DNA of 31,596 nt. Origin: Paecilomyces variotii (lineage: Eukaryota). Shown here piece by piece: positions 5,191 through 31,329 of the stretch; position 1 is the first letter of the stretch, and every line of letters begins with the position of its first letter. The DNA is taken from NCBI GenBank assembly GCA_004022145.1, contig RCNU01000039.1. One strand, given 5' to 3'. The notes under the pieces are model-generated. The model was not told where the DNA came from. It worked only from the letters and a program-made list of their open reading frames with translations, and searched no databases. The position numbers and the translations under genes were made by a program.

Positions 5191-5495
5191 TATTTAAGAT
5201 AGTTCTGCTTATTCTTTTAATATCCCCTTATTATATTCTTATAATAATATTCTCTTATTATATTCTTATAATAGTATTTAATAATATTTCTCTTTTTTAT
5301 AACTATATTTAGTAATATTTCTCTTATATACTACCTTAATTTAGAATTTTAATTATAGCTACTATAATATGCTATAGGGACTTATAGCATAATATAGTAC
5401 TTAAAGGTATATAATAGTATTTAGTAGTATACTATAGTTTTTACTTTAACTTTTAAGACTTATATAGACTTAAGTCCCTTAAAAGGGGGGGCAAA

Positions 5496-5700
5496 TATTA
5501 TAGATAATAACCCCCAGATCTTACGGGGTTATATAACCTGCTAGTTATATAACTTACTTAGTATACTTAGGCTTTTTAAATTCTAAGATCTTTTCTAATC
5601 TTTAATAAGAATATCTTCGATCTTAATATTAATATATTAAAGTTTTAAAATTTAAAAACTACTCTTTATTAAGATAATATAAATTACTATTATAATTTAT
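5496..5700 (+). repeat. Putative 3' LTR of gypsy relic A
   Basis: Starts just after the PPT with RIPped TG; contains inverted repeat ATAACCCC...GGGGTTAT and two GTTATATAAC palindromes. No partner LTR in window, end uncertain. Confidence 0.55.
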
Positions 5701-6070
5701 AATTATACTATATTTAATATACTTAAATAATAATAAAACTTAAATTAATAAAATAAGATATATATTTTTAATAGTATAAATTTTATATATATTTATTCTG
5801 AGAATATATATATAGTTAGTAAAATATTTTAGTTTAAATATTTACTTATTATAAGAATTTTATCCTATAATAAGTTTAATAAGTTTATTCTTTAATAAAA
5901 TATAAGTAGTAAAGTTAGCTAAGACTAAGATATTAAATTAGTTAATACTAATAGAGTTAATATCTTAGAGGTTTAAAAGATCTTATATATTTAAATTAAG
6001 ATAACTTATATAAAGTATTTAGCTCGTATTTTTAATTAAATTTACAGAGTTAAATTAAACTTATAACTTC

Positions 6071-6206
6071 TTTAAGCTAATAAAAAAGCTTAATTAAAGA
6101 ATTATTTAAGGTCTTAATTAAGCTAAACTATTTAGCTATTACTTTATTAACTAAGCTAATTACTAATATAAGCGACTATTACTAAAGCCTCTAGAGGTAG
6201 TAAAAA
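6071..6206. repeat. ~135-bp LTR-derived segment, diverged direct repeat of 6623-6759
   Basis: Shared CTTAATTAAGCTAAAyTATyTAGCTATTACTTTATTAACTAAGCTAA...TATTACTAAAGCCT in both copies. Confidence 0.8.
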
Positions 6207-6210
6207 AATA

Positions 6211-7559
6211 TATTAAGGAAAATTAATTTCTTAGCTATATTAGCTAAGAGATAATAATATAATATATTTACTATAGAAATAAGTAATAAGTAAAAGTCTA
6301 TATAATAGCAGTTAGCTTATTAAGCTAATAAAGAAAATAATAAAATAAAAGAGTAATAATAGAGTAAAAGAGTAAGCCTATTAATATAATAAAATAGAAG
6401 ATAATTAATAAGCTATAAAGAAATTAACTAAGTGCCTTAATAAATTAAACTTAAATACTATTTCTATATTTAAATAATATTATTAGTATTTATAAGATAA
6501 TAGAGTTAATAAATACTCTTATAAAAGAAAGAAGTAATAAAGTAAATAAAGTAAATAATAATTTAATAATAATTAATAGAAAAGTAATAATATAGCTTAC
6601 TTAAAATAAGTAATAATATACCTTAAAGCTAATAAAGATACTTAATTAAGAAATTATCTAGAGGCTTAATTAAGCTAAATTATCTAGCTATTACTTTATT
6701 AACTAAGCTAACTATTAATATAAATAATTATTACTAAAGCCTTTAAGAGTATTAAAATACTCTCTTTAATTATATTAATAAATAGGCTAATTACCTAGTT
6801 AAGTAATTTATTTAATCCCTTTAAATATATAGTTTCTTTAATCTTATAAGCTTATATAACTCTTTAAATTTAACTTAATTTAATAGCTTTATTAAGCTAT
6901 TTATTAAATTTATTTTATTATTAATTTTTTATAGTTTAATTATATTATTAACTACTATAGTTTAAATAAAGAAATAATAATTATCTAGCTATTTAATAAT
7001 TAGCTTATAATCTCTATTTTTAATTAAAACTATAGCATTTACTATATTAGTTTAGACTAATATAAAGATCTTTAAATCCTATTTAAGACTTAAAGTATAA
7101 GCTAATTTTCTTATAAATATAGCTTCTTTTACTATAAAATCTAATATATAAAATTTAGTAATTATTATTAATAGAGCTATTATTTACTATTTTTTATTAA
7201 ACTAGTTAATAAATACGCCTTTATATAGAATTATAAATGCTTTAATTAAAGTCTTATTAAAGTTACTTTAATAATTAGTATTTATATAAACTTTAATACT
7301 TCTATTAAAATTTATTTTTAGTTTAATATTATAATTAAGAGCTTAGTAAATATATTATAATAAGTATTTTATTACTTTAATATCTTTATTATTTAAGTTA
7401 TTTACTTTTTATTATAAGTAATTTATAGCTTAAGCTAAATTTAGCTATATTTTAATTATTAATTAGCTTAACTTTCTAATATAATTTTAATATTTAATTT
7501 TAATATTTTTATCTGCTAATTCTTCTAAATACTTTAGTTTATATATAAATATTATAAAG
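6211..7559 (-). mobile_element. Ty1/copia relic, family B: RT end/RNase H, PPT and 3' LTR
   Basis: Minus-strand de-RIP: KKQQIVALST..AEF..L..AVKEAIF.RKL (~7100-7200), KWLDNRYFFVR (~6960-7000), NLADGLTKPL (~6880-6915); purine tract AAAGAGAG then TATT (TGTT) at 6759. Left LTR boundary (6211) is tentative. Truncated at 7559 by a family A LTR. Confidence 0.75.
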
Positions 7560-7851
7560 AGTTAAAGAGAATAGATAAAATAACTTATATTAGCTTTAAA
7601 AAAATATAACTTAAGATAAAGATAAAGTATAAGAAATAAAATTAATATTAATATATTCTTATAATATAGTTAGTTAATTATATTAAGTTAATTAAATTTT
7701 CCTTTTAAGCTAATATACTTAATATAAAAACTCTTTTATTAAGCTAATTATTTTCTATAACTATATATATAATTATTTTAAACTCTTTTATAAAGGAATT
7801 TTTTATATATTCTCTTTATAAATTACTAGTTCTAATTATTATATTATAATA
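7560..7851 (-). repeat. 3' LTR of copia family A copy 1
   Basis: Begins AGTTAAAGAGAATA and ends TTATAATA followed by a T-tract and AATTTAAACTT, paralleling 25517 (AGTTAAAAAGAATA) and 25791 (TTATAATA CTTTTTCTTAGTTTAAACTT). Confidence 0.75.
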
Positions 7852-9384
7852 TTTTTTTTAATTTAAACTTATTATCTTAATAAGTTTTAATTACTTAATA
7901 AATTTAATAAAGCCTATTTTTAAAAATAATTTAATAAATCTATTAGCTATTATATTCTTAGTCTTAATATATTTTATATTAATTTAATTCTTTTAATATA
8001 AATCTTATATATAATAATATATAATATTAATATATTTTAATTTATTATAAGTATAAGTATTTTCAATTAAAAATAATAATATTTAATTATTTCTAAAAAG
8101 TTTTACTAAAGAGCTTATTATAAAAAATAATTCTTTTTTATAATTAGCTTATATTAGTTTAAATTAATATATTTATTATAATCTATATTATATAGAAGTA
8201 ATATTAGCTATTATAATTACTTTATTACTTAATATATAGCTATATATTTAGCCTTTATTATTAAGGTTATAATAAACTTCTATTTTTAAATTAATTAATT
8301 AATTAAATAGCTTATTATAATAAAAATATTTCCTAGAATTAATATTTAGTCTATTTTATTTATTATATAATTTAAATTAAAATATTTAATAAATTTCTAG
8401 TCTTAGTTCTTATAAAATTAAAGGCTTAAGTATATAATTAATTATAAGTATCTTATTAAGGATTTTAATAGCTTAAAATAGCCTTTAAATAGGTTAAATA
8501 AATACTAACTTAATTATATTACTATAAATATAATATTTAATCTTATTAAAATAACTAGATAAATAAATATTTTAATAATCTTTTAATATTCTCTTTAATT
8601 AGCTCTTTTATCTTATAGATTAGCTAATTTTAAATAATTATATTTATTTAATAAGATATTAATAGAATAAATTTTCTCTTTATCTATTCTATATTTTAAT
8701 AAAATCTCTTAAGTATAATAAAATTAATTTATAAATAATATTTTTTTTACTCTATTATAAATAATCTAAATATTAAGTATTTTATTTATTTTTCTTAGGT
8801 TTTTAATCTTATATACTATTTTAAACTTCTATTTAAACTAATTAATATATTTTATCTGCTTTAAGCTAATTAAAATATTATTAATATATATTAGAATTAA
8901 AATCTCTTTTTTTAAGTACTATAGTAAGTATAAGTCTATATTTATTTAAATAAATCTTATTCTTTATAGTATTTTAATATAAAAATAGTTTTAATCTTAT
9001 ATTATTTATTTTAAACTATATAAAGATTTTAAGATTTTAAATATTATTTTTAATAAAATATTTATTTTAAGTAAAGCTATTATATAAATCTTCTCCTTTA
9101 ATATTAATTTAATAAAGGTATTATTAATATTTATTATATAATACTTATAATCTTTTATAGCTATTATAATTAAAAAAACTTATAATATATTATAATATAG
9201 AGTTAGAGTAAAGATATATTTAAAGTTAATTTTATATTTTTAAGTAAATCTATAAATAATAAAATAGGCCTTAAGCTTTTATAGAGAATTATTTAGATTA
9301 TATTTTATAACTAGTATTTATCTGCTAATTATAATATTATCTCTCTTTAATAAAATAATTATTTTAAAAGTTTTATTTACTTAT
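7560..9384 (-). mobile_element. Ty1/copia relic, family A copy 1 (3' LTR, RNase H, part of RT)
   Basis: LKSLYGLK ~9009-9033, ILVYVDDIL 8872-8898, SKHIDV.YH ~8010-8045, ADG.TK ~7930-7950; collinear with 21466-22650 and with the 25517-31329 element. Homology stops at ~9384. Confidence 0.88.
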
Positions 9385-10300
9385 TATACTTACTATAAAT
9401 ATATCTCTATTTATATTTAAATTTAAGCTTAATATTAAAAGACTTATAATTACTTTAATAGAAACGCTTAAAATACTTATTATTATATCTTTTTTTATCT
9501 CTAGATTTTTAAAGTAACTTTTAAACCTAGATAAATTTAAAAATAATTAAAAAGACCTTTAGTACTTTATAGCCTAAATTTAAAAGAAGATAATAATTAA
9601 TTAAGACTAATTTTTAACTTCCTAGAGCTATATAGTCTATATAATTAATTATTTAAAGAACGCGCCTTATATTTAAATATTACCTTATATTAAGAATAGG
9701 ACTTATACTCTTAGTAATTATTAAGAAATCTTAAATATCTTAAAGCGCGTATTTAATAACTTTAATTATATAAATAATATATATAGTAAATTATTTAACC
9801 TTTATTAAATTAATAAAAAATTTAAAACTTTCTTTATTAAGTTTTAATACTTAATATTAAAAAAAGAAATATTTAAAAAAATATTATTTACCTTACTTAA
9901 ATAAGCTATTAGTTAAAAACTTTAAGAAATATTATTATATAATTAGCCCCTAAGTTATAAATATTACTAATTTATTAAATTTTTATAAGATTTTAAAAAC
10001 TATTATTATTAATATATTATAAACTAATCTCTTATTATAAAAATTTATACTATTATTTTAAAACTTATTTTATATATTTAATTTCTCTTACTTATTTTAA
10101 ACTCTATCTTTATTATAAAAATTAATAATTAGCCTTAGAGAAACTTAGTATAAAAAAATAAACTAGCTCTAGTATAATAATATAACCCTATAAATTTAAA
10201 TATATTTAAATACTTAAGTAAAAGAAAATATAGCTTATTATATTATAAAACTAATACTTACTTTTATTATAATCTAAGTAAATAATATAAAACTTTAGCG
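9385..10300 (+). pseudogene. gag: RIPped Ty3/gypsy gag fragment
   Basis: De-RIP reading resembles fungal chromovirus gag: PDKF.G.RKDL..F.AQI ~9525-9585, QTNKEF.TFFAEFQRLALE ~9808-9865, LLEQAIS.EL ~9890-9925, DPM.L ~10183-10200, degenerate zinc knuckle ~10230-10275. No 5' LTR seen. Confidence 0.65.
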
Positions 10301-10440
10301 CGAAGCGCATTAAGCTAATTAGATTCCCTTAAGTCTCTTAGGCTAATTAAATCCTCTTAAATATAGAAAATACTAGTATAAAGCGACTAGAAGTACAGAA
10401 GCCTATAGGGACTTAGGGTCTCTTATTAGCTAAGAGAAAA

Positions 10441-14791: not shown

Positions 14792-15034
14792 TATTACGCT
14801 TAAGCAGATTAAATTAGATTTATTAAAGCTTTTAATCTAGTAAGGTAATATAATAGAGAACTTTAAGCTAAAGAGAGAAAAGGAAAAGAATTTAAAGAAG
14901 AAATCTTAATTCTTTTATTTATAAGATTCTTTATTTCTTAATTACTTTTAAATAGTATAAGCAGTTAATAATTCTACTAGTTAATTTCTTACTCTATTTT
15001 TTTACTATATAAATACTAAGTTAGCACTGTAATA
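14792..15034 (-). repeat. 3' LTR of full-length chromovirus
   Basis: TATTACG...CTGTAATA (RIPped TG..CA); direct repeat of 20397-20639 differing by transitions; degenerate PPT adjacent at ~15035-15046. Confidence 0.95.
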
Positions 15035-15089: not shown

Positions 15090-18000
15090 TTAGTTCTCTA
15101 AATTAAAATTTTTATTAGTATAGTCGATTTAATAGTTTAAATTAGCTAGCGGCCTAGGTTTATTAGGGAATTTATTATAAAAATCTTAGAGCTTTAGCGG
15201 CGAATTCTTAAAGTTTTTAATAAAATATTATATTAAATTTTTATTATACTCTTTCTAAGCAGCCTTATATTAAAAATACTTATATTTAACTTAAATAGCT
15301 AAAATCTTATTAACTTTTTATTTTAATTTGCCTTAAACTTTAATCGGTAAGAACTCTTTATTAACTTAATATAGAATAGGATTATTTAATGCTTATTAGA
15401 GGTAATTTAAAGAAAATACTAAGCGGACTTTTATAGTATTAGGGAGTTTTAATTTTTAAATATTTTCTATCTTTTTAAAGATTTTAAAGGGGCTTTCTAT
15501 TTAATTACTAAGTTTTTATAAAGATTAATTAAATATTTAGTTTATAGGCTTAATAAAAACCTTATTACTAATATTAAAGTTAACCTCTTAATAATATTTA
15601 TTAGCCTATTTTTTCTACTATTCTTAAGCCTTTTTAATAGAGGCTTTTATTATCTTCTAGATTTATTAAAGCTAGTATATCTATTGCTAAGCTTTAGCCT
15701 AATTAGCTTTCTCTAATATTAAGGTAAACTGTAATACTAGGCGCTAGTTAAATAAGATATAGGGCTTATATCTATATTTAACTATAAATAAAGATATTTC
15801 TATAAATTCCTAGGTTAATACTATTATTATAAAATTAACTATTAAGAGATAATTTAATTAGTTATTCTAATAATAATTAATATAGGGCTATAGTCTCTAG
15901 GCTATATATTAGTTTAGAATCTCTATTTATCTATTTATTTAAGAGTATATAGCTAAAAAAAAGCTTTAACTTTATTTTTAGCAATAAACAGAATTTATCT
16001 TAAAAATTTAAAATAAATTATAGTTCTTAATTAAAAACTATTATATTAAGAGTATTTTTATAATAGTATATATATTTAAAGAAAATCTTAGTTATAGTCT
16101 GCGCTATAGCTATATTATAATAAGAGATAGAGATAAAGCGCTTATTAAAATAATTAATTACTATAAAAATAATATTATAACTATACTTATTCTTTAAAAA
16201 GAATTAAAAATCTATTAAGATATATTATTATAGTTATTTAAAAATAGGTAATAGTTAAAGTAATTTTAATAGAGAGTTTTATAAGTTCTTAATTTAGCAA
16301 TAGATTAAATAATTATTAATATATTAATTAATAAAGTTAGTTATTTTAGGCTAGTAATAGTAAGACTTTATTAATTACTATATTTTTCTATATCTTAAAT
16401 AAGTAGTAGAAACTTAATAATAGATTTTATTTAAAAGATATATCTATAAATCTCTCTAATTAAAGATAATTAATTATTTACTATATAATAGAAGCTTATT
16501 TATTAATTAATATAGAGAACTTTCTTAATTTATATCTTTATAAAATAGTACTAAGTCTATATTCTTATAATTCTCCCTAAGAATTTTATTTATTAAAATA
16601 AACTCTCTAATTAATATTAAAGCTAAAAGAATCTTTTACTTTATTAATTTTTTCTAGATTTATATATTTAAGACTTTAAGCCTTAGTAGGCGCTAGGTCT
16701 AGTATTAACTTATCTATTTCCTTTATTAAGAAATATCCCCTTCTTACTATAATAAGATATTAGCTAAAATATTTAGCTTTTTAAGGTAATATTAAATTAA
16801 GAAATAATAATATAATAAGAACTTTACCTATTAAGCCTATTTTAAATTTAATACTTTAGTAATTATAAAGTATTTAAAAGCATAATAATCTATTAAGATA
16901 TTAAATAGCTTATTAGTCTATAACCCTATAAGCTTTATATACTATTTCTTAAGGGCTTATATAATTACTAAGAGCTCTTTATTATAAATAGAATAATTAT
17001 ATTCGGCTAATATTATTGTCTTTAAATAATAGGCTATTAAATATTAAAAGTTTTATTTATCTTTTTATTAAGTAAGTATAGTAGCTATAATATTATCTAA
17101 AGTATTTATCTTAATATATATATCTTTATTAAGATTATAATTATATAGAATTAGCGCTAATTAAAGATATTCTTTTAGTATTTTAAAAGCCTTATAGTAG
17201 GTCTAATTAAAATTAAATAAATAATTCTCTTTAATTAGATTTATTATAAGTCTTATAATATAATTATAATTCTTAATAAATCTCCTATAAAAATTATAGA
17301 AGCCTAAAAATAAATAGACTTTATAGATTATTTTAGATTATTCTTAATCTTAGATAATAGTAATCTTTTTAAAGTTAACTTTAATACTCTTTATACTAAT
17401 AATAAAACTAAGGTATTTTATCTATATAATATAAAACTTATACTTCTTAATATTAGCTTATAGACTAGCTTTCTATAGATAAAATAGTATCTCTTTTACC
17501 TAGAGTTAATATTTCTATTTATTATTAAAATAGATTAAGATATTATTTAAATAAATACTTATATAGTTATTAAACAGGTTAAAGAAGAGATTATTTATAT
17601 ATTATTAGAATATAGCCGGTTTATTAATAAGCTTAAAAGAAAGTACTTAATACTTATAAATCCTATATTTTATATAGAAAGTTATTAAAGCTTTTAAATT
17701 AAAATCTATTTAAATCCTATAAAATACTTATTAAATATTTAGCTTTATAAAGATCTTAGCTTAGCTAACTTTAACTAGGGTTTTATTAATTAGCAGTAAG
17801 AAATAATAATTTTTCTTTATAATAATATTTAAACAGTAATAATTAATATAGAATTATAATTCTCTATTTACCTTTTTTATAAAAAGAATAAATAAGGTAA
17901 ATAATTCTTAGCTAAATATAATAAAATCTTTCTTTAAGTTATTAATTAGATATATCTTTAATATTTATAACTCTTCTAATAATTATTTATAGAGAGATTA

Positions 18001-20396: not shown

Positions 20397-20639
20397 TATT
20401 ATACTCAAGTAGACTAAATTAAATTTATTAAAGCTTTTAATTTAATAAAGTAATATAATAAAAAACTTTAAATTAAAGAGAGAAAAGAAAAAGAATTTAG
20501 GGAAAGAATTTTAATTCTTTTATTTATAAAATCCTTTATTTCTTAACTATTTCTAAATAGTATAAGTAGTTAATAGTTCTACTAGTTAATTTCCCGCTCT
20601 ATTTTCTTACTATATAGGCGCTAAGTTAATGCTATAATA
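20397..20639 (-). repeat. 5' LTR of full-length chromovirus
   Basis: TATTATAC...CTATAATA, same length as left LTR; minus-strand TATAAATA at ~20521-20528 followed by a pyrimidine-rich tract. Confidence 0.95.
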
Positions 20640-20645
20640 CTTATA

Positions 20646-21057
20646 TATTATAATAGTAATTAACTATTATTAAAGAGAATAATTAGTTATTATTTAATTA
20701 AAGAATATACTATAGTTTAAATTAAGCTCTTAAACTATAGATAGCTAAAGAATTAATAATAAGATATTATATTAATAGATATAATTAGTTTAAAGGGCTT
20801 AGGGAACTTTATAAGTATAAGAATTATAGATAATCTTAATTAAGTCTAATAAGAGAAAATATAATATTAAGATATTATATAATTTAAGTAATTAAGTAAG
20901 CGGCCTTTTAAATTAAGAGAACTAATTAGCTTAGCTAATTAGCTTATTTATTTATATAATAGAGCTTAGCCTTATTATATAATTAATTAGCTTAATTAAT
21001 TAGCCTATTTATTTATATAATAAGGCTTAGCCTTATTATATAATTAATCTTATAATC
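20646..21057. repeat. Probable solo LTR containing a 61-bp tandem duplication (20924-20984, 20985-21045)
   Basis: Inverted termini TATTATAA...TTATAAT; flanks TTATA/CTATA are a RIP-compatible TSD. The tandem units are directly visible; the LTR call is inference. Confidence 0.5.
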
Positions 21058-21465: not shown

Positions 21466-22920
21466 AATACTAGTTATTATAATTACTTTACTACTTAATA
21501 TATAGCTATATATTTAATCTTTATTATTAAGGTTATAATAAACCTTTATTTCTAACTTAATTAGTTAATTAAATAGCTTATTATAATAAAAATATTTTTT
21601 AAGATTAATATTTAATTTATCTTATCTATTATATAATTTAAATTAAAATATTTAATAAGTTTTTAATCTTAGTTTTTATAGAATTAAAGGCTTAAGTATA
21701 TAATTAACTATAAGTATTTTATTAAGGATTTTAATAGCTTAAAATAGCCTTTAAATAAGTTAAATAAGTATTAACTTAATAATTCTATTATAAATATAAT
21801 ATCTAGTTTTATTAAAATTATTAAGTAAATAAATACTTTAATAATCTTTTAATATTTTTTCTAGTTAGCTCTTTTATTTTATAGACTAGTTAGTTTTAAA
21901 TAATTATACTTATTTAATAGAATATTAATAAGATAAGCCTTCTCTTTATTTATTTTATATCTTAATAGAATTTCTTAAATATAATAAGATTAATTTATAA
22001 TTAATATTCTTTTTATTCTATTATAAATAATCTAAATATTAAATATTTTATTTACTTCTCTTAAATCCTTAATCTTATATATTATTTTAAACTTCTATTT
22101 AAATTAATTAATATACTTTATTTACTTTAAGCTAATTAAGATATTATTAATATATATTAAGATTAAAATCTTTTTCTTTAAATAATATAGTAAGTATAAG
22201 TCTATATTTATTTAAATAAATTTTATTCTTTATAATATTTTAATATAAGAATAATTTTAATCTTATATTATTTATTTTAAACTATATAAAGATTTTAAGA
22301 CTTTAAATATTATTTTTAGCAAGATATTTATTTTAAATAAAGCTATTATATAAATCTCTTCTTTTAATATTAATTTAATAAAGGTATTATTAATATCTAT
22401 TATATAATACTTATAATCTTCTATAATTACTATAGCTAAAAAAACCTATAATATATTATAATATAGAGTTAAAGTAAAGATATATTTAAAGATAATTTTA
22501 TATTTTTAAATAAATCTATAAATAATAAAATAGGCTTTAAGCTTTTATAAAAAACTATTTAAATTATATTTTATAACTAGTACTTATTTATTAATTATAA
22601 TATTAGCTTCCTTTAATAAAATAATTATCTTAAAAATTTTATTTACTTATAATATATTTATTTTAACTTTAAAAATCTTTTACTATAATTTATCTTATAT
22701 AAAATTATTAATTATAATTATAATTATATAGAAATTAAAGATTAAAATATATTTTTTAATAATAAAAACTACTTTTAATATATAATTTATATACTTCTCT
22801 TTATTTAAAATAATTCTTAGAATAATAAGGTTTAAAGTAAGTATTATTTTATAAAGCTTTATATTCTATTTATTCTTTATAAGCTTATATATTTCTATTA
22901 TAAATATAGCTTTACTATAG
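21466..22920 (-). mobile_element. Ty1/copia relic, family A copy 2 (RT fragment, no LTRs)
   Basis: Collinear and highly similar to 8200-9384; YVDD ~22143-22156; LKSLYGLK ~22275-22300; similarity to the third copy extends to ~22900. Confidence 0.88.
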
Positions 22921-25516: not shown

Positions 25517-25791
25517 AGTTAAAAAGAATAAGTTCAGATAGAATTCCCTAGATTAATCTAATAGCTTAAAGAGCTAATAATACTTAGAGAAAAAGAATAT
25601 TAGTATATATAATAGATATAAAATATATTATTATATATTCTTAGTTAAAGTAATAGATTTTATATAAAGCTTAAGAAATAATTTTTTTAAACCGCCTAAT
25701 TTTACTAAAGTAAAATTATTCTTAAAAATTTCTTTAATATAAAATCTTTATTATATTAAAACTTACTAGTCTTAATTATTATTTTATAATA
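25517..25791 (-). repeat. 3' LTR of full-length copia (275 bp)
   Basis: Direct repeat of 31057-31329; adjacent PPT remnant CTTTTTCTT at 25792-25800. Confidence 0.93.
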
Positions 25792-25819
25792 CTTTTTCTT
25801 AGTTTAAACTTACTAAGTT

Positions 25820-28800
25820 AGTTAATCTTAATTAATTTAAAAATTTTAAAAAGTTTACCTTTAATAATAATTTAATAAAACTATTTATTATTATATCTTA
25901 TATTCTAATAAACTTAATACTAATCTTATTCTTTTAGTATAGGTTATATATATAATAATATATAATATTAATATACTTTAATCTCTTATAAATATAGGTA
26001 TCTCTAATTAATAATAATAATATTTAATTATCTCTATAGACTTTAACTAGAGAATTAATAATAAAAGCTTATTTTTCTCTTATTATTAGCTTAAATTTAT
26101 TTAGACTAATATAATATCTATATTCTATATTTCTTAAAAAAAGGGCTAATTATTAAGACTATTTTATAGCTTAATATATAGTTATATATTTAGCCTTTAT
26201 AGTTAAAGTTATAATAGACTTTTATTTCTTATTTAATTAGCTTATTAAACTATTAGTTAAAATAAAAATATTCTCTAAGATTAATATCTAATTAATTTTA
26301 TCTATTATATAATCTAAGTTTAAATATTTAATAAATTATTAGTCTTAGTTTATATTAAACTTAAGACTAAAATATATAATTAATTATAAGTATCTTATAA
26401 AAGACTTTAATACCTTAAAATACTTTTTAAATAAATTTAATAGATATTAACTTAATTTACCTATTATAAATATAATATTTAATCTTATTAAAATTATTAA
26501 ATAAATTAAGCTATTAATAATCCTTTAATACTTTCTCTAGTCTACTCTTTTATCTTAAGGGCTAAATAATTTTAGAGAGTTATATCTATTTAATAGGATA
26601 TTAACTAAATATATTTTCTTTTTATTTATTTTATATTATAATAAAAATTCTTTAGTATAATAAAATTAGTCTATTATTAATATTTAGTTTTACTTATTTT
26701 AAATAACTTAAATATTAAGAATCTTCTTTATTTCTCTTAAATTCTTTATCTTATATATTAATTTAAACTCTTATTTAAACTAGTAAATATTCTCTATTTA
26801 CTTTATACTAATTAAGATATTATTAATATATACTAGGAATAAAATTTCTTTCTCTAAATATTATAATAAGTATAGATTAATATTAGTCTATATAAAACCT
26901 ATTTTTTAAAGTATTTTTATATAGGTTTAATTCGGGCCTACACCTCGGCCCAGCCGGGGGCGAGCTCAGCCCACCCTAGAAGCTCAGCCCACCCGAGTAT
27001 TTTTACCATTTTTTAAGTGGGCCGAGCTTTTAAACTAAAAACTTCAAAAATTTATTAAAAGTCGAAACCTAAAGATATTTCACTCGAAATTAAATATTTA
27101 TATAGGTTATAACCTATATCTTATATATATAAAAAAAGAAAAATTAAATATCTAAAAATCGATTTTTAAGAATTAAAAAACCAAGAAAGATTTGTAATTT
27201 TCGAATTTCTATGTGTAATTTACTAACTCTTGCCCTAGCGTACCCAATTAAAATCCTAAAATCCTAATTTTAATATATAATGTAGACTAAAATATAAATT
27301 ATTTTATAATATTTTTTATATATTTCTACTATGCCTAAATAGGCTAGGAAAAATCAAAGTTTCTTGGGGTGCGCCGAGATCCCAAATACTTGGGTGGTAT
27401 GAGCTTTTAGGGTGGGCTGAGCTCGTCCCCGGCTGGGCTGAGCTACATCCCGGTTTAATTCTAATCTTTTATAGCCTATTTTAAATTATATAAGGATTAA
27501 AAAACTTTTAATACTATTTTTAATAATATATTTATTTTTAATAGAAGTATTATATAAATCTCCTTTTTTAATATTAACTCTATAAAGGTATTATTAATAT
27601 AATAATAGCTAAAAATATTTATAATATATTATATTATAAGATAGAAGTAAAAATATACTTAAAATTAATACTATATTTTTAAATAAACCCTTAAGTAATA
27701 AAATATATCTTAAGCTTTTAAAGGAAACTATTTAAATTATATTTTATAGCTAATACTTAATAGCTAATTATAATATTAACTCTTAATAATAGTATAATTA
27801 CTTTAAAAATTTTATTTACCTATAATATATTTATTTTAGCTTTAAATATACTTTACTATAATTTACCTTAAATAGAGTTATTAATTATAGCATAATATAA
27901 GTTTAAAATTAAAATATACTTTTATTATATATACTACTATTATAGTATTTAATACTTATTCTATATACTTTTCTTAGTCTATATTAATACCTAAAGATAA
28001 AAGATTTAATATAAGTATTACTTAATATAACTTCTTAGTATTTTATTTATTATTTAATAACTTAATCTTCTCTCTCTTATATTTTACTATATAGAGAATC
28101 TCTATATAAAATATAATTTATTTACTTAGTAAAAATAAGGGGTTTATCTATAAATCTTTATAATTATTTAAATTATTAAAATAAGAATAATTAAATATTT
28201 TCTCTTATTCTATAATTTTATTATAATAAAAAGTTTCTTTTTCTTTTTAAAAAAATATTTTAATTTCTTTTTAATAAAATACTCTTTTTTCTTTTTAAAG
28301 AAAAACTAGAACTTCCTTATAACTCTTTTCCTAATTATTAATATTATTTTTTTTTATTTAAAGATATATATATACTTAAAATAATAGGCTAAGTTATTAG
28401 TTAATCTCTTAAATTCTTTATTAATATTATATTTAATAATAATCTTTAAAGAATCTTAAGGTTTAAGTCTCCTTTTAATTTATTCTTAAAGAACTTAGCT
28501 TAATAAATCTTAATAATCTTTCTTATATTTAAAGCTTAAGCTTTTTATTATTTATTTATTTTTTTAATATATTCTATAAAAATATAGATTTTACCTTAAT
28601 TTATTAATTTATTCTTTTATATATTTTATAATAAAGATTCTAGGTTTATATATAATACTATCTAATATTTCTATACTTTTAAATAGTTAATTAATAGCTT
28701 AACTTTAGTAAAAGCTTTTTTTAAAGATATTTAAACATTATTAACTATTAATCTATTTAATACTTTATTTCTAATATATATATTAGTTTAAGCTATTTCT

Positions 28801-31056: not shown

Positions 31057-31329
31057 AGTTAAAAAAATAGATTTAAATAGAATTCTCTAAACTAATCTAA
31101 TAGCTTAAAGGGCTAATAATACTTAAGGAAAAAGAGTATTAGTATATATAATAAATACAAAATATATTACTATATATTCTCAGTTAAAATAATAAATTTT
31201 ATATAGAGCTTAAGAAGTAGTTTATCTAAGCTACCTAATTTTATTAAAATAAAATTATTCCTAAAGATTTCCTTAATATAAATCTTTATTATACTAGAAC
31301 TTATTAGTCTTAACTGCTATTTTATAATA
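31057..31329 (-). repeat. 5' LTR of full-length copia (273 bp)
   Basis: Direct repeat of 25517-25791, differing mostly by transitions plus small indels. Confidence 0.93.

What the first reader, a model, noticed from the sequence alone, without database searches (positions are those of the whole stretch)
26924..27461. RIP-escaping MITE inserted into a dead copia RT
Seen: the only stretch in 31 kb that keeps many CA, TG and CG dinucleotides; ~68-bp TIRs; perfect flanking duplication; it splits the copia RT between the SLYGLK and YVDD motifs, and two homologous empty sites lie in the same window (~8975-8995, ~22245-22262). Inference: it inserted after RIP had saturated the region, or it evades RIP. 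That implies a transposase active in trans more recently than any other element here. I do not recognise the family.
Basis: partly seen in the sequence, partly recalled or inferred. Interest (0 to 1): 0.8.

Follow-up and report, generated by a model that had tools for sequence, protein, structure and literature searches.

The report
Young MITE inside RIP-killed copia element
A 518-base non-coding DNA transposon, probably of the Mutator type, jumped very recently into a long-dead, mutation-saturated retrotransposon of a fungus; it is real and tidy, but it is an ordinary kind of event.

Summary
Window 26934-27451 is a 518-bp element with 69/68-nt GC-rich terminal inverted repeats and an exact 10-bp target-site duplication (GGTTTAATTC). 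It has no ORF over 23 aa. It carries 17-26% of the window's CA, TG and CG dinucleotides in 1.6% of its length.

With the element and one duplication copy removed, the flanks align without gaps to two paralogous sites in the window, at 8982-8991 and 22248-22257. The translated flanks match an intact copia polyprotein at residues 843-887 (…SLYGLKQAARD) and 889-1258 (…LLYVDD…). The insertion therefore sits inside the RVT_2 reverse-transcriptase domain.

Public runs show that the element is multi-copy. Contigs identical to this copy over 26934-27434 have about 22-29 times the depth of unique neighbouring pieces in three runs from three studies. Other contigs carry the element's left end behind different flanks.

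My reading is a recently inserted MITE, mobilised in trans. The 10-bp duplication and long TIRs point to the Mutator superfamily, but no transposase partner could be sought because no genome is held. Whether the family evades RIP by being short, or simply moved after the last RIP cycle, stays open. MITEs that escape RIP are already in print. It is a new member of a known kind, of modest interest.

The parts
26934..27451 (+). Whole non-autonomous element (MITE). It is 518 bp and 34% G+C, against 15.7% for the window.
   Evidence: The longest ORF is 23 aa. There is no tRNA. The only Rfam match is U12 at 16.4 bits, E = 1, far below its gathering score of 53.
26924..26933 (.). Left copy of the 10-bp target-site duplication, GGTTTAATTC
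   Evidence: family D12, 100% identical. The joints skip 528 bases with 10 letters fitting either side.
27452..27461 (.). Right copy of the 10-bp target-site duplication, GGTTTAATTC
   Evidence: family D12
26934..27002 (+). Left terminal inverted repeat, 69 nt and GC-rich. It holds two direct subterminal repeats AGCTCAGCCCACCC (26963-26979 and 26981-26997).
   Evidence: (I1, D2). The motifs GCTCAGCCCA, CCACCC and GCCCA occur 0 times in the rest of the window.
27017..27030 (-). A further, inverted and degenerate, copy of the subterminal motif (GTGGGCCGAGCT), just inside the left TIR
   Evidence: Read from the sequence. TGGGC at 27018 and GAGCT at 27024.
27003..27383 (+). AT-rich non-coding interior, 24% G+C. 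It still holds 15 CA+TG and 8 CG.
   Evidence: Contigs of zero difference cover it at high depth (records 14, 20, 29).
27384..27451 (-). Right terminal inverted repeat, 68 nt, with the mirrored subterminal repeats (27392-27412, 27410-27430, 27431-27451)
   Evidence: (I1, D1)
27464..27598 (-). Host gene: RIP-degraded copia RT, the part upstream of the insertion, ending in SLYNLKxAIKD
   Evidence: P0001 residues 568-612. One search aligns them to P0004 residues 843-887, E = 2e-07.
25823..26932 (-). Host gene: RIP-degraded copia RT (from the LVYINNILI motif on) and the RNase H part, downstream of the insertion
   Evidence: P0002 residues 1-370. One search aligns them to P0004 residues 889-1258, E = 2e-72. 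One search gives 3498 hits. One search places RVT_2 at P0004 760-994.
8982..8991 (.). Empty-site homologue in paralogous copia copy B (AAAATAGTTT)
22248..22257 (.). Empty-site homologue in paralogous copia copy C (AGAATAATTT)

Best explanation
This is a miniature, non-autonomous cut-and-paste DNA transposon (MITE) of a RIP-proficient fungus.

How it most likely works (inferred): a transposase encoded elsewhere in the genome binds the repeated GC-rich motif AGCTCAGCCCACCC in the two roughly 68-nt terminal inverted repeats. It excises the element and integrates it with a 10-bp staggered cut, which after repair gives the duplication GGTTTAATTC.

What is shown: this copy landed in the reverse-transcriptase region of a copia-type retrotransposon. 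That retrotransposon had already been driven to about 13% G+C by repeat-induced point mutation.

Superfamily (inferred): the 10-bp duplication and the long TIRs make the Mutator (MULE) superfamily the most likely source of the transposase. I put that part at about 0.55-0.6.

Age: the copy carries no private mutation over the 501 bases that could be compared, and it belongs to a family of roughly 20-30 identical copies per genome. The insertion is therefore recent and post-dates all RIP seen in the window.

Still open: why the family stays unmutated. It may be too short for RIP to recognise between unlinked copies, or no sexual (RIP-competent) cycle has happened since it spread.
For: Shown by tool results:
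- Exact 10-bp duplication and 59-nt TIR core at 90%; 57 of 69 columns identical over the full TIR.
- Colinear, gap-free empty sites in two paralogues.
- No coding capacity and no RNA-family or tRNA match.
- The flanks are a copia pol split at residue ~888 of an intact homologue, inside RVT_2.
- CA+TG density is 57.9 per kb in the element against 3.6 per kb in the rest of the window.
- Contigs with 0 differences cover 26934-27354 (X2, depth 158.4), 27336-27434 (X2, 123.8), 27008-27382 (X4, 131.3) and 27112-27354 (X17, 1480.8). The other listed pieces of the same runs have depths of 4.8-10.5, 3.6-4.9 and 50-108 (table 8).
- 6 contigs in X17 and 4 in X15 begin the element at 26934 behind other, mutually unlike flanks (table 7), which means other insertion sites.
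- No RIP-degraded copy of the TIR lies elsewhere in the window (2 matches, both the TIRs themselves; 0.10 expected by chance).

From the literature:
- MULE duplications are 8-11 bp and their TIRs unusually long. Ascomycete Hop-group TIRs are 51-99 bp and Mutyl duplications 9-10 bp (PMC6446971, passages and Table 1).

Inferred:
- Trans-mobilisation, binding of the subterminal motif, and the copy number taken from depth ratios.
Against: - No autonomous partner or transposase was seen, because no genome is held. The Mutator assignment rests on duplication length and TIR length alone.
- The outermost 13 columns of the two TIRs agree poorly (6 of 13), which is unusual for the part a transposase normally cuts at.
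- The element's own RIP indices are not those of pristine DNA: TA/AT is 1.19 and (CA+TG)/(AC+GT) is 0.91. Light ancestral RIP of the family, or simply its AT-rich interior, cannot be told apart.
- Diverged copies of the end regions (7-10% different) also exist (records 4, 11-13, 21, 23). The kinds of change in them were not listed.
- Contig depth is a rough proxy for copy number, and the tool warns against reading it as such.
- No contig was shown bridging this locus's own junctions.
Confidence: 0.8

Rival explanations
1. It is a MITE of a superfamily other than Mutator (hAT, P, Merlin or an undescribed one) that here made, or appears to have made, a 10-bp duplication.
For: Superfamily was inferred from one duplication and the TIR length only. 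No transposase was seen. The TIR tips are poorly conserved.
Against: In the source read, 8-11 bp duplications with long TIRs are described as characteristic of MULEs (PMC6446971). From recall, hAT gives 8 bp, Tc1/mariner TA, and PIF 3 bp. The 10-bp length is confirmed independently by the empty-site alignment and by joints with 10 ambiguous letters.
Confidence: 0.25
2. RIP is still active in this fungus and the family truly evades it, because 518-bp unlinked copies fall below the length RIP needs.
For: About 20-30 identical copies persist in a genome whose longer repeats are mutated to saturation. Short high-GC MITEs and TRIMs are proposed to escape RIP by compactness in another wheat-associated ascomycete (PMC8549362, Discussion passage).
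Against: 518 bp is above the ~400 bp limit quoted there for Neurospora. RIP can leak into neighbouring non-repeat DNA (PMC4943192, passage). This copy lies inside a highly repeated copia family (many contigs at least 90% alike over the flanks) yet shows 0 differences over 501 bases. That fits 'no RIP cycle since insertion' better.
Confidence: 0.35
3. The family spread after RIP stopped operating (clonal propagation, rare sex or lost RIP machinery). Its intact state would then say nothing about evasion.
For: There are zero private mutations in this copy and identical cores in three runs of three studies. Nothing else un-RIPped lies in the window for comparison.
Against: No data on the mating system, on RID, or on other young un-RIPped long elements could be obtained. 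Diverged copies of the ends exist and might be RIPped older members.
Confidence: 0.45
4. It is an assembly artefact: a repeat wrongly spliced into the copia sequence.
For: No listed contig bridges this locus's junctions. No run held more than 0.74 of the sampled words of 26700-27700.
Against: A mis-join would not create an exact 10-bp duplication that restores a gap-free, in-frame alignment to two paralogues and to an intact copia protein (residue 887, one split codon, then residue 889). De Bruijn contigs are expected to break at a multi-copy repeat.
Confidence: 0.02

Closest known systems
Fungal Mutator-like elements of the Hop group (Ascomycota), and Mutyl
   Same: Duplication length falls within 8-11 bp (Mutyl 9-10 bp). 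TIRs are long (51-99 bp in the ascomycete sub-groups), and the host is a fungus (PMC6446971, Introduction and Table 1 passages).
   Different: This element is 518 bp with no ORF, whereas those are autonomous and encode a transposase. No sequence comparison was possible, because no TE library or genome is held. Mutyl TIRs are only 22 bp.
High-GC, high-copy MITEs and TRIMs of Parastagonospora nodorum said to escape RIP
   Same: They are short, non-coding, recently active elements that keep normal G+C in a genome with strong RIP. The proposed mechanism is compactness (PMC8549362, abstract and passages).
   Different: Those average under 400 bp, and the named expanding MITE families are Tc1/mariner-type (DTT) or unclassified. 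This one is 518 bp with a 10-bp duplication. Whether the species is the same is unknown. The supplements with that paper's TE library could not be seen.
mimp / impala of Fusarium oxysporum (recalled; PMC3599309 seen only in a search listing)
   Same: A fungal MITE mobilised in trans by a transposase encoded elsewhere.
   Different: From recall, mimps are about 200 bp, have short TIRs and duplicate TA (Tc1/mariner type). Here the duplication is 10 bp and the TIRs are about 68 nt.
Mutator-derived MITEs of plants
   Same: The same concept: small non-coding derivatives with MULE-type ends and duplications (search listing only; the 15 papers listed concern plants, an insect and an archaeon).
   Different: The host kingdom differs, and there is no RIP in plants. 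The phrase search listed no fungal example.

Membership tests
MITE (non-autonomous class II TIR element) | Terminal inverted repeats | tested here: met
   59 nt at 90%; 57 of 69 columns identical to the tips; fold z = -10.4
MITE (non-autonomous class II TIR element) | Target-site duplication, and an empty site that lacks the element | tested here: met
   Exact 10-bp repeat. Gap-free empty sites at 8982-8991 and 22248-22257.
MITE (non-autonomous class II TIR element) | Small size and no coding capacity | tested here: met
   518 bp; longest ORF 23 aa
MITE (non-autonomous class II TIR element) | Many homogeneous copies at different sites | tested here: met
   Zero-difference contigs at about 22-29 times the depth of the other listed pieces in X17, X2 and X4. 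Element starts lie behind differing flanks in 6 (X17) and 4 (X15) contigs. Depth ratios are rough. No genome was available for a direct count.
Mutator / MULE superfamily | Target-site duplication of 8-11 bp | tested here: met
   10 bp. Range from PMC6446971.
Mutator / MULE superfamily | TIRs longer than in other superfamilies | tested here: met
   68-69 nt. Ascomycete MULE TIRs are 51-99 bp (PMC6446971, Table 1).
Mutator / MULE superfamily | An autonomous partner with the same TIRs encoding a MURA-type DDE transposase | not testable with these tools
   No genome is held. There were 0 exact matches to the TIR 28-mer in metagenome, prokaryote-genome and viral collections. Four matches to a relaxed pattern were chance hits.
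Mutator / MULE superfamily | Sequence similarity of the TIRs to a catalogued MULE family | not tested
hAT-derived MITE | 8-bp duplication and short TIRs (recalled definition) | tested here: not met
   The duplication is 10 bp and the TIRs about 68 nt.
Tc1/mariner-derived MITE (Stowaway or mimp type) | TA duplication (recalled definition) | tested here: not met
   The duplication is GGTTTAATTC.
Ty1/copia retrotransposon (the host sequence) | RVT_2-type RT lying C-terminal to the integrase in the polyprotein | tested here: met
   Pfam on the RIPped translations found nothing. phmmer gave 3498 hits, best E = 2.4e-70. All 5 top hits scanned carry RVT_2, and the 4 long ones also carry rve upstream of it. 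The flanks are colinear with P0004 residues 843-887 and 889-1258.
RIP-affected DNA | Depletion of CpA/TpG relative to ApC/GpT, and excess TpA | tested here: met
   Flanks and window: index 0.09, TA/AT 1.36. Element: 0.91 and 1.19. That is about ten-fold less depleted than the window but borderline by the commonly used cut-offs (recalled), so the element itself is inconclusive.

The most novel reading that the evidence does not exclude
The family is transposing now, and its copy number differs about 20-fold between isolates of the same fungus. The summed depth ratio X15/X17 is a steady 6-8 over the copia flanks but 20-147 over the element (table 2). That would mean a MULE-type MITE burst is under way in a grain- and food-associated fungus whose other repeats are among the most severely RIPped known. 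It would give a natural system for asking how a repeat longer than 400 bp stays invisible to RIP.
Probability: 0.15. Interest if true: 0.5.

Novelty: new member of a known kind. Interest (0 to 1): 0.3.

Why it matters
The element marks the most recent mobile-element activity in an otherwise dead repeat block, and it shows that a DNA transposase has worked in this fungus after RIP saturated its retrotransposons. Such MITEs are practical markers for strain typing by presence or absence, and they can alter nearby genes. At 518 bp with 20 or more identical copies, the family lies near the length limit usually quoted for RIP, so it could help define that limit outside Neurospora. The principle that short non-autonomous elements survive in RIP-proficient genomes is already published, so the finding adds a case, not a concept.

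Tried and rejected
- The whole genome was requested but none is held. Copy number, per-copy duplications and the autonomous partner could therefore not be examined directly.
- Pfam on the stop-as-X translations of both flanks gave 0 families. It was replaced by phmmer against the representative library, then Pfam on the hits.
- Rfam at E up to 1 gave only a U12 match at 16.4 bits against a gathering score of 53. I take that as chance. ARAGORN found 0 genes. The element is therefore not tRNA- or SINE-derived.
- A RIP-degenerate TIR pattern with up to 3 mismatches found only the two TIRs in the window.
- The exact TIR 28-mer gave 0 matches in metagenome contigs, 0 in genome contigs and 0 in viral contigs.
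- A relaxed double-motif pattern in metagenome contigs gave 4 loci (L001-L004). Three are 71-72% G+C and one is a GC-42% tandem coding-like repeat. None has the element's structure, so all were rejected as chance.
- A first BLAST with permissive scoring gave hundreds of spurious 60% alignments in the AT-rich background. It was repeated with stricter scoring.
- A cluster look-up of the four best copia hits gave no organism or useful name.
- Earlier findings by place, sequence and words returned nothing.
- A paper search for the subterminal motif found 3 papers, all unrelated.
- The joints that skip 528 bases in X15, X17, X2 and X4 (table 5) were considered as evidence of an empty allele at this locus. 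I rejected that reading. I had set likeness to 90, and sides are only 29-47 letters. In addition, 4 separate contigs in X17 and 2 in X4 run from 26933 into right-flank-like sequence with differences (table 7), so these most likely come from paralogous copia copies.
- Cover of this locus's own junctions by contigs was not shown. I draw no conclusion from that.
- The runs' habitat labels (grain, plant and fermentation metagenomes) are taken only as a loose hint of where the host occurs.

Full report
**The window.** All 31,596 bases are extremely AT-rich (15.7% G+C; 500-bp bins range from 11 to 28%). [quoted passage not shown]
- There are only 82 CA, 61 TG and 73 CG dinucleotides.
- (CA+TG)/(AC+GT) is 0.09 and TA/AT is 1.36.
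- Outside the element, 85% of the surviving C residues are followed by T.

A strict self-comparison shows three partial, diverged copies of one retrotransposon region: A at 25756-28056, B at 7816-9388 and C at 21466-22879. A is 77-81% identical to B and C, and B is 90% identical to C.

**The observation.** The element occupies 26934-27451.
- It is 518 bp and 34% G+C.
- It holds 14 of 82 CA, 16 of 61 TG and 14 of 73 CG in 1.6% of the window's length.
- The twelve richest 200-bp windows by CA+TG all overlap it.
- Its AT-rich interior alone has 15 CA+TG against 1.39 expected at the rate of the rest of the window, P = 3e-11.
- The inverted repeats are 59 nt at 90% complementarity. Taken to the tips they are 69 and 68 nt with 57 of 69 columns identical.
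- As a single strand it folds at -97.9 kcal/mol, z = -10.4.
- Each end carries two to three copies of the motif AGCTCAGCCCACCC, whose core words occur nowhere else in the window.
- The flanking direct repeat GGTTTAATTC is exact and cannot be extended.

**Empty sites.** When the element and one repeat copy are removed, the flanks align without a gap to copies B and C. The 10 bases at 8982-8991 and 22248-22257 correspond to the duplicated target. In the public runs, further contigs run from the left flank straight into right-flank-like sequence: 4 in X17 and 2 in X4 (table 7). Joints also skip exactly 528 bases with 8-10 ambiguous letters (table 5). Because I set likeness to 90% and these contigs differ from the window, I read them as additional paralogous copia copies without the element. 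I do not read them as an empty allele of this locus.

**The host gene.**
- Pfam found nothing in the RIPped translations.
- phmmer with the downstream flank, stops read as X, found 3498 proteins, the best at E = 2.4e-70.
- All five top hits scanned carry RVT_2. The four long ones show the copia order of gag or pre-integrase, then rve, then RVT_2.
- The upstream flank ends at residue 887 of the intact homologue P0004 (…SLYGLKQAARD).
- The downstream flank starts at residue 889 and runs colinearly to residue 1258, with LVYINNILI opposite LLYVDDASV.
- One codon is split by the insertion.
- The Gly-to-Asn, Asp-to-Asn and Val-to-Ile replacements in these motifs are what G-to-A transitions produce.

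**What the element is.** It has no ORF above 23 aa, no tRNA and no credible RNA-family match. No RIP-degraded relative of its TIR lies elsewhere in the window. Twenty public runs from nine studies hold half or more of the sampled words of 26700-27700. I laid four of them, from four studies.

Contigs with zero differences cover the following stretches:

| Run | Stretch | Depth | Depth of the run's other listed pieces |
|---|---|---|---|
| X2 | 26934-27354 | 158.4 | 4.8-10.5 |
| X2 | 27336-27434 | 123.8 | 4.8-10.5 |
| X4 | 27008-27382 | 131.3 | 3.6-4.9 |
| X17 | 27112-27354 | 1480.8 | 50-108 |

Taken as a rough ratio, and the tool warns that depth is not copy number, this is about 22-29 identical copies per genome. 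Six contigs in X17 and four in X15 start the element at 26934 behind mutually unlike, mostly AT-rich flanks. One contig in X15 joins it to ordinary-composition DNA (table 7). Those are other insertion sites. Pieces 7-10% different from the end regions also exist (records 4, 11-13, 21, 23). In X17 the end bins sum to 2-3 times the core. More elements therefore share the ends than share the core, which is what a family with several internal variants, possibly including the autonomous one, would give (inference).

**Mechanism.** The anatomy is that of a cut-and-paste element moved in trans. The transposase most likely binds the repeated subterminal motif (inferred) and makes a 10-bp staggered cut (shown by the duplication).
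- Duplications of 8-11 bp together with unusually long TIRs are given as the hallmarks of Mutator-like elements.
- Ascomycete MULEs have TIRs of 51-99 bp, and Mutyl gives 9-10-bp duplications (PMC6446971, passages and Table 1).
- hAT (8 bp) and Tc1/mariner (TA) are excluded by the duplication (definitions recalled).
- The decisive feature, a partner with the same TIRs and a MURA-type transposase, could not be sought. No genome is held, and the TIR has no exact match in the metagenome, prokaryote-genome or viral collections. Four hits to a relaxed pattern were chance.

I therefore call it 'probably MULE-derived' at about 0.55-0.6.

**Timing and RIP.** The copy equals the multi-copy form at all 501 compared bases, so it has no private mutation. 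It sits in DNA where RIP has removed nearly every CpA, and RIP can leak into neighbouring unique DNA (PMC4943192, passage). The insertion therefore post-dates the RIP seen here. I cannot decide between two explanations for why the family stays intact:
- It escapes recognition by being short, as proposed for MITEs and TRIMs of P. nodorum (PMC8549362, passages). That paper quotes ~400 bp as the Neurospora limit, which this 518-bp element exceeds.
- No RIP-competent sexual cycle has occurred since it spread.

The element's own indices (0.91 and 1.19) are borderline by the usual cut-offs (recalled). That may only reflect its AT-rich interior.

**Comparison and novelty.** The kind is known: a fungal MITE that survives in a RIP-proficient genome. 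Mutator-derived MITEs are well known in plants (listing only). That phrase search listed no fungal case, and the motif itself is not in the searchable literature. These are narrow searches, and no TE library could be consulted. The supplements of PMC8549362, which may hold a TE library, were not seen. I rate it a new member of a known kind.

**An unexplained lead.** The summed depth ratio X15/X17 is a steady 6-8 over the flanks but 20-147 over the element (table 2). This suggests either a much higher copy number in one isolate or a library effect.

**Verdict.** Interest is modest (0.3).

Noticed in passing
window 1-31596, excluding 26934-27451: RIP here is unusually complete and broad in context. 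Of the remaining C residues, 85% are CpT, 9.9% CpC, 2.8% CpA and 2.4% CpG. At 15.7% G+C the block lies near the low end of the AT-rich components surveyed across fungi, which range from 12.3% to 48% (PMC4943192, passage).
   Followed up: partly
window 26910-27458, as laid in runs X15 and X17: The element is about 20 times more abundant relative to its flanks in run X15 than in X17. The depth ratio is 20-147 over the element against 6-8 over the flanks (table 2). This is either a copy-number burst in one isolate or a library effect.
   Followed up: no
window 5484-5530: An island of G and C runs (AAAAGGGGGGGCAAATATTATAGATAATAACCCCCAGATCTTACGGGG) survives in RIPped DNA. It looks like a polypurine tract next to an LTR end (guess from recall) and may mark a retrotransposon boundary.
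   Followed up: no
window 9660-9667, 9745-9751, 10298-10309, 15150-15200: Most CpG outside the element sits in small GCGC-type clusters (AACGCGCC, AGCGCGT, AGCGCGAAGCGC, TAGCGGCC, AGCGGCGAA). This suggests that C in a GCG context is spared by the mutation process.
   Followed up: no
window 7816-9388, 21466-22879, 25756-28056: Three partial copies of the same copia pol region lie in one 31-kb window. B and C are 90% alike, while each is only 77-81% like A. This points to at least two rounds of duplication, or different RIP histories.
   Followed up: partly
window 20923-21048; also 6070-6190 / 6622-6742, 14792-15011 / 20397-20616, 25517-25791 / 31057-31329: There is a 65-bp tandem duplication (92% identical) and three further dispersed repeat pairs at 86% identity. 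They may be LTR or other TE fragments and were not classified.
   Followed up: no
table 7 (flanks of other copies): Consensus flanks of other copies of the element are themselves AT-rich. The family may therefore insert preferentially, or survive preferentially, in RIPped blocks. One copy in X15 abuts DNA of ordinary composition.
   Followed up: no
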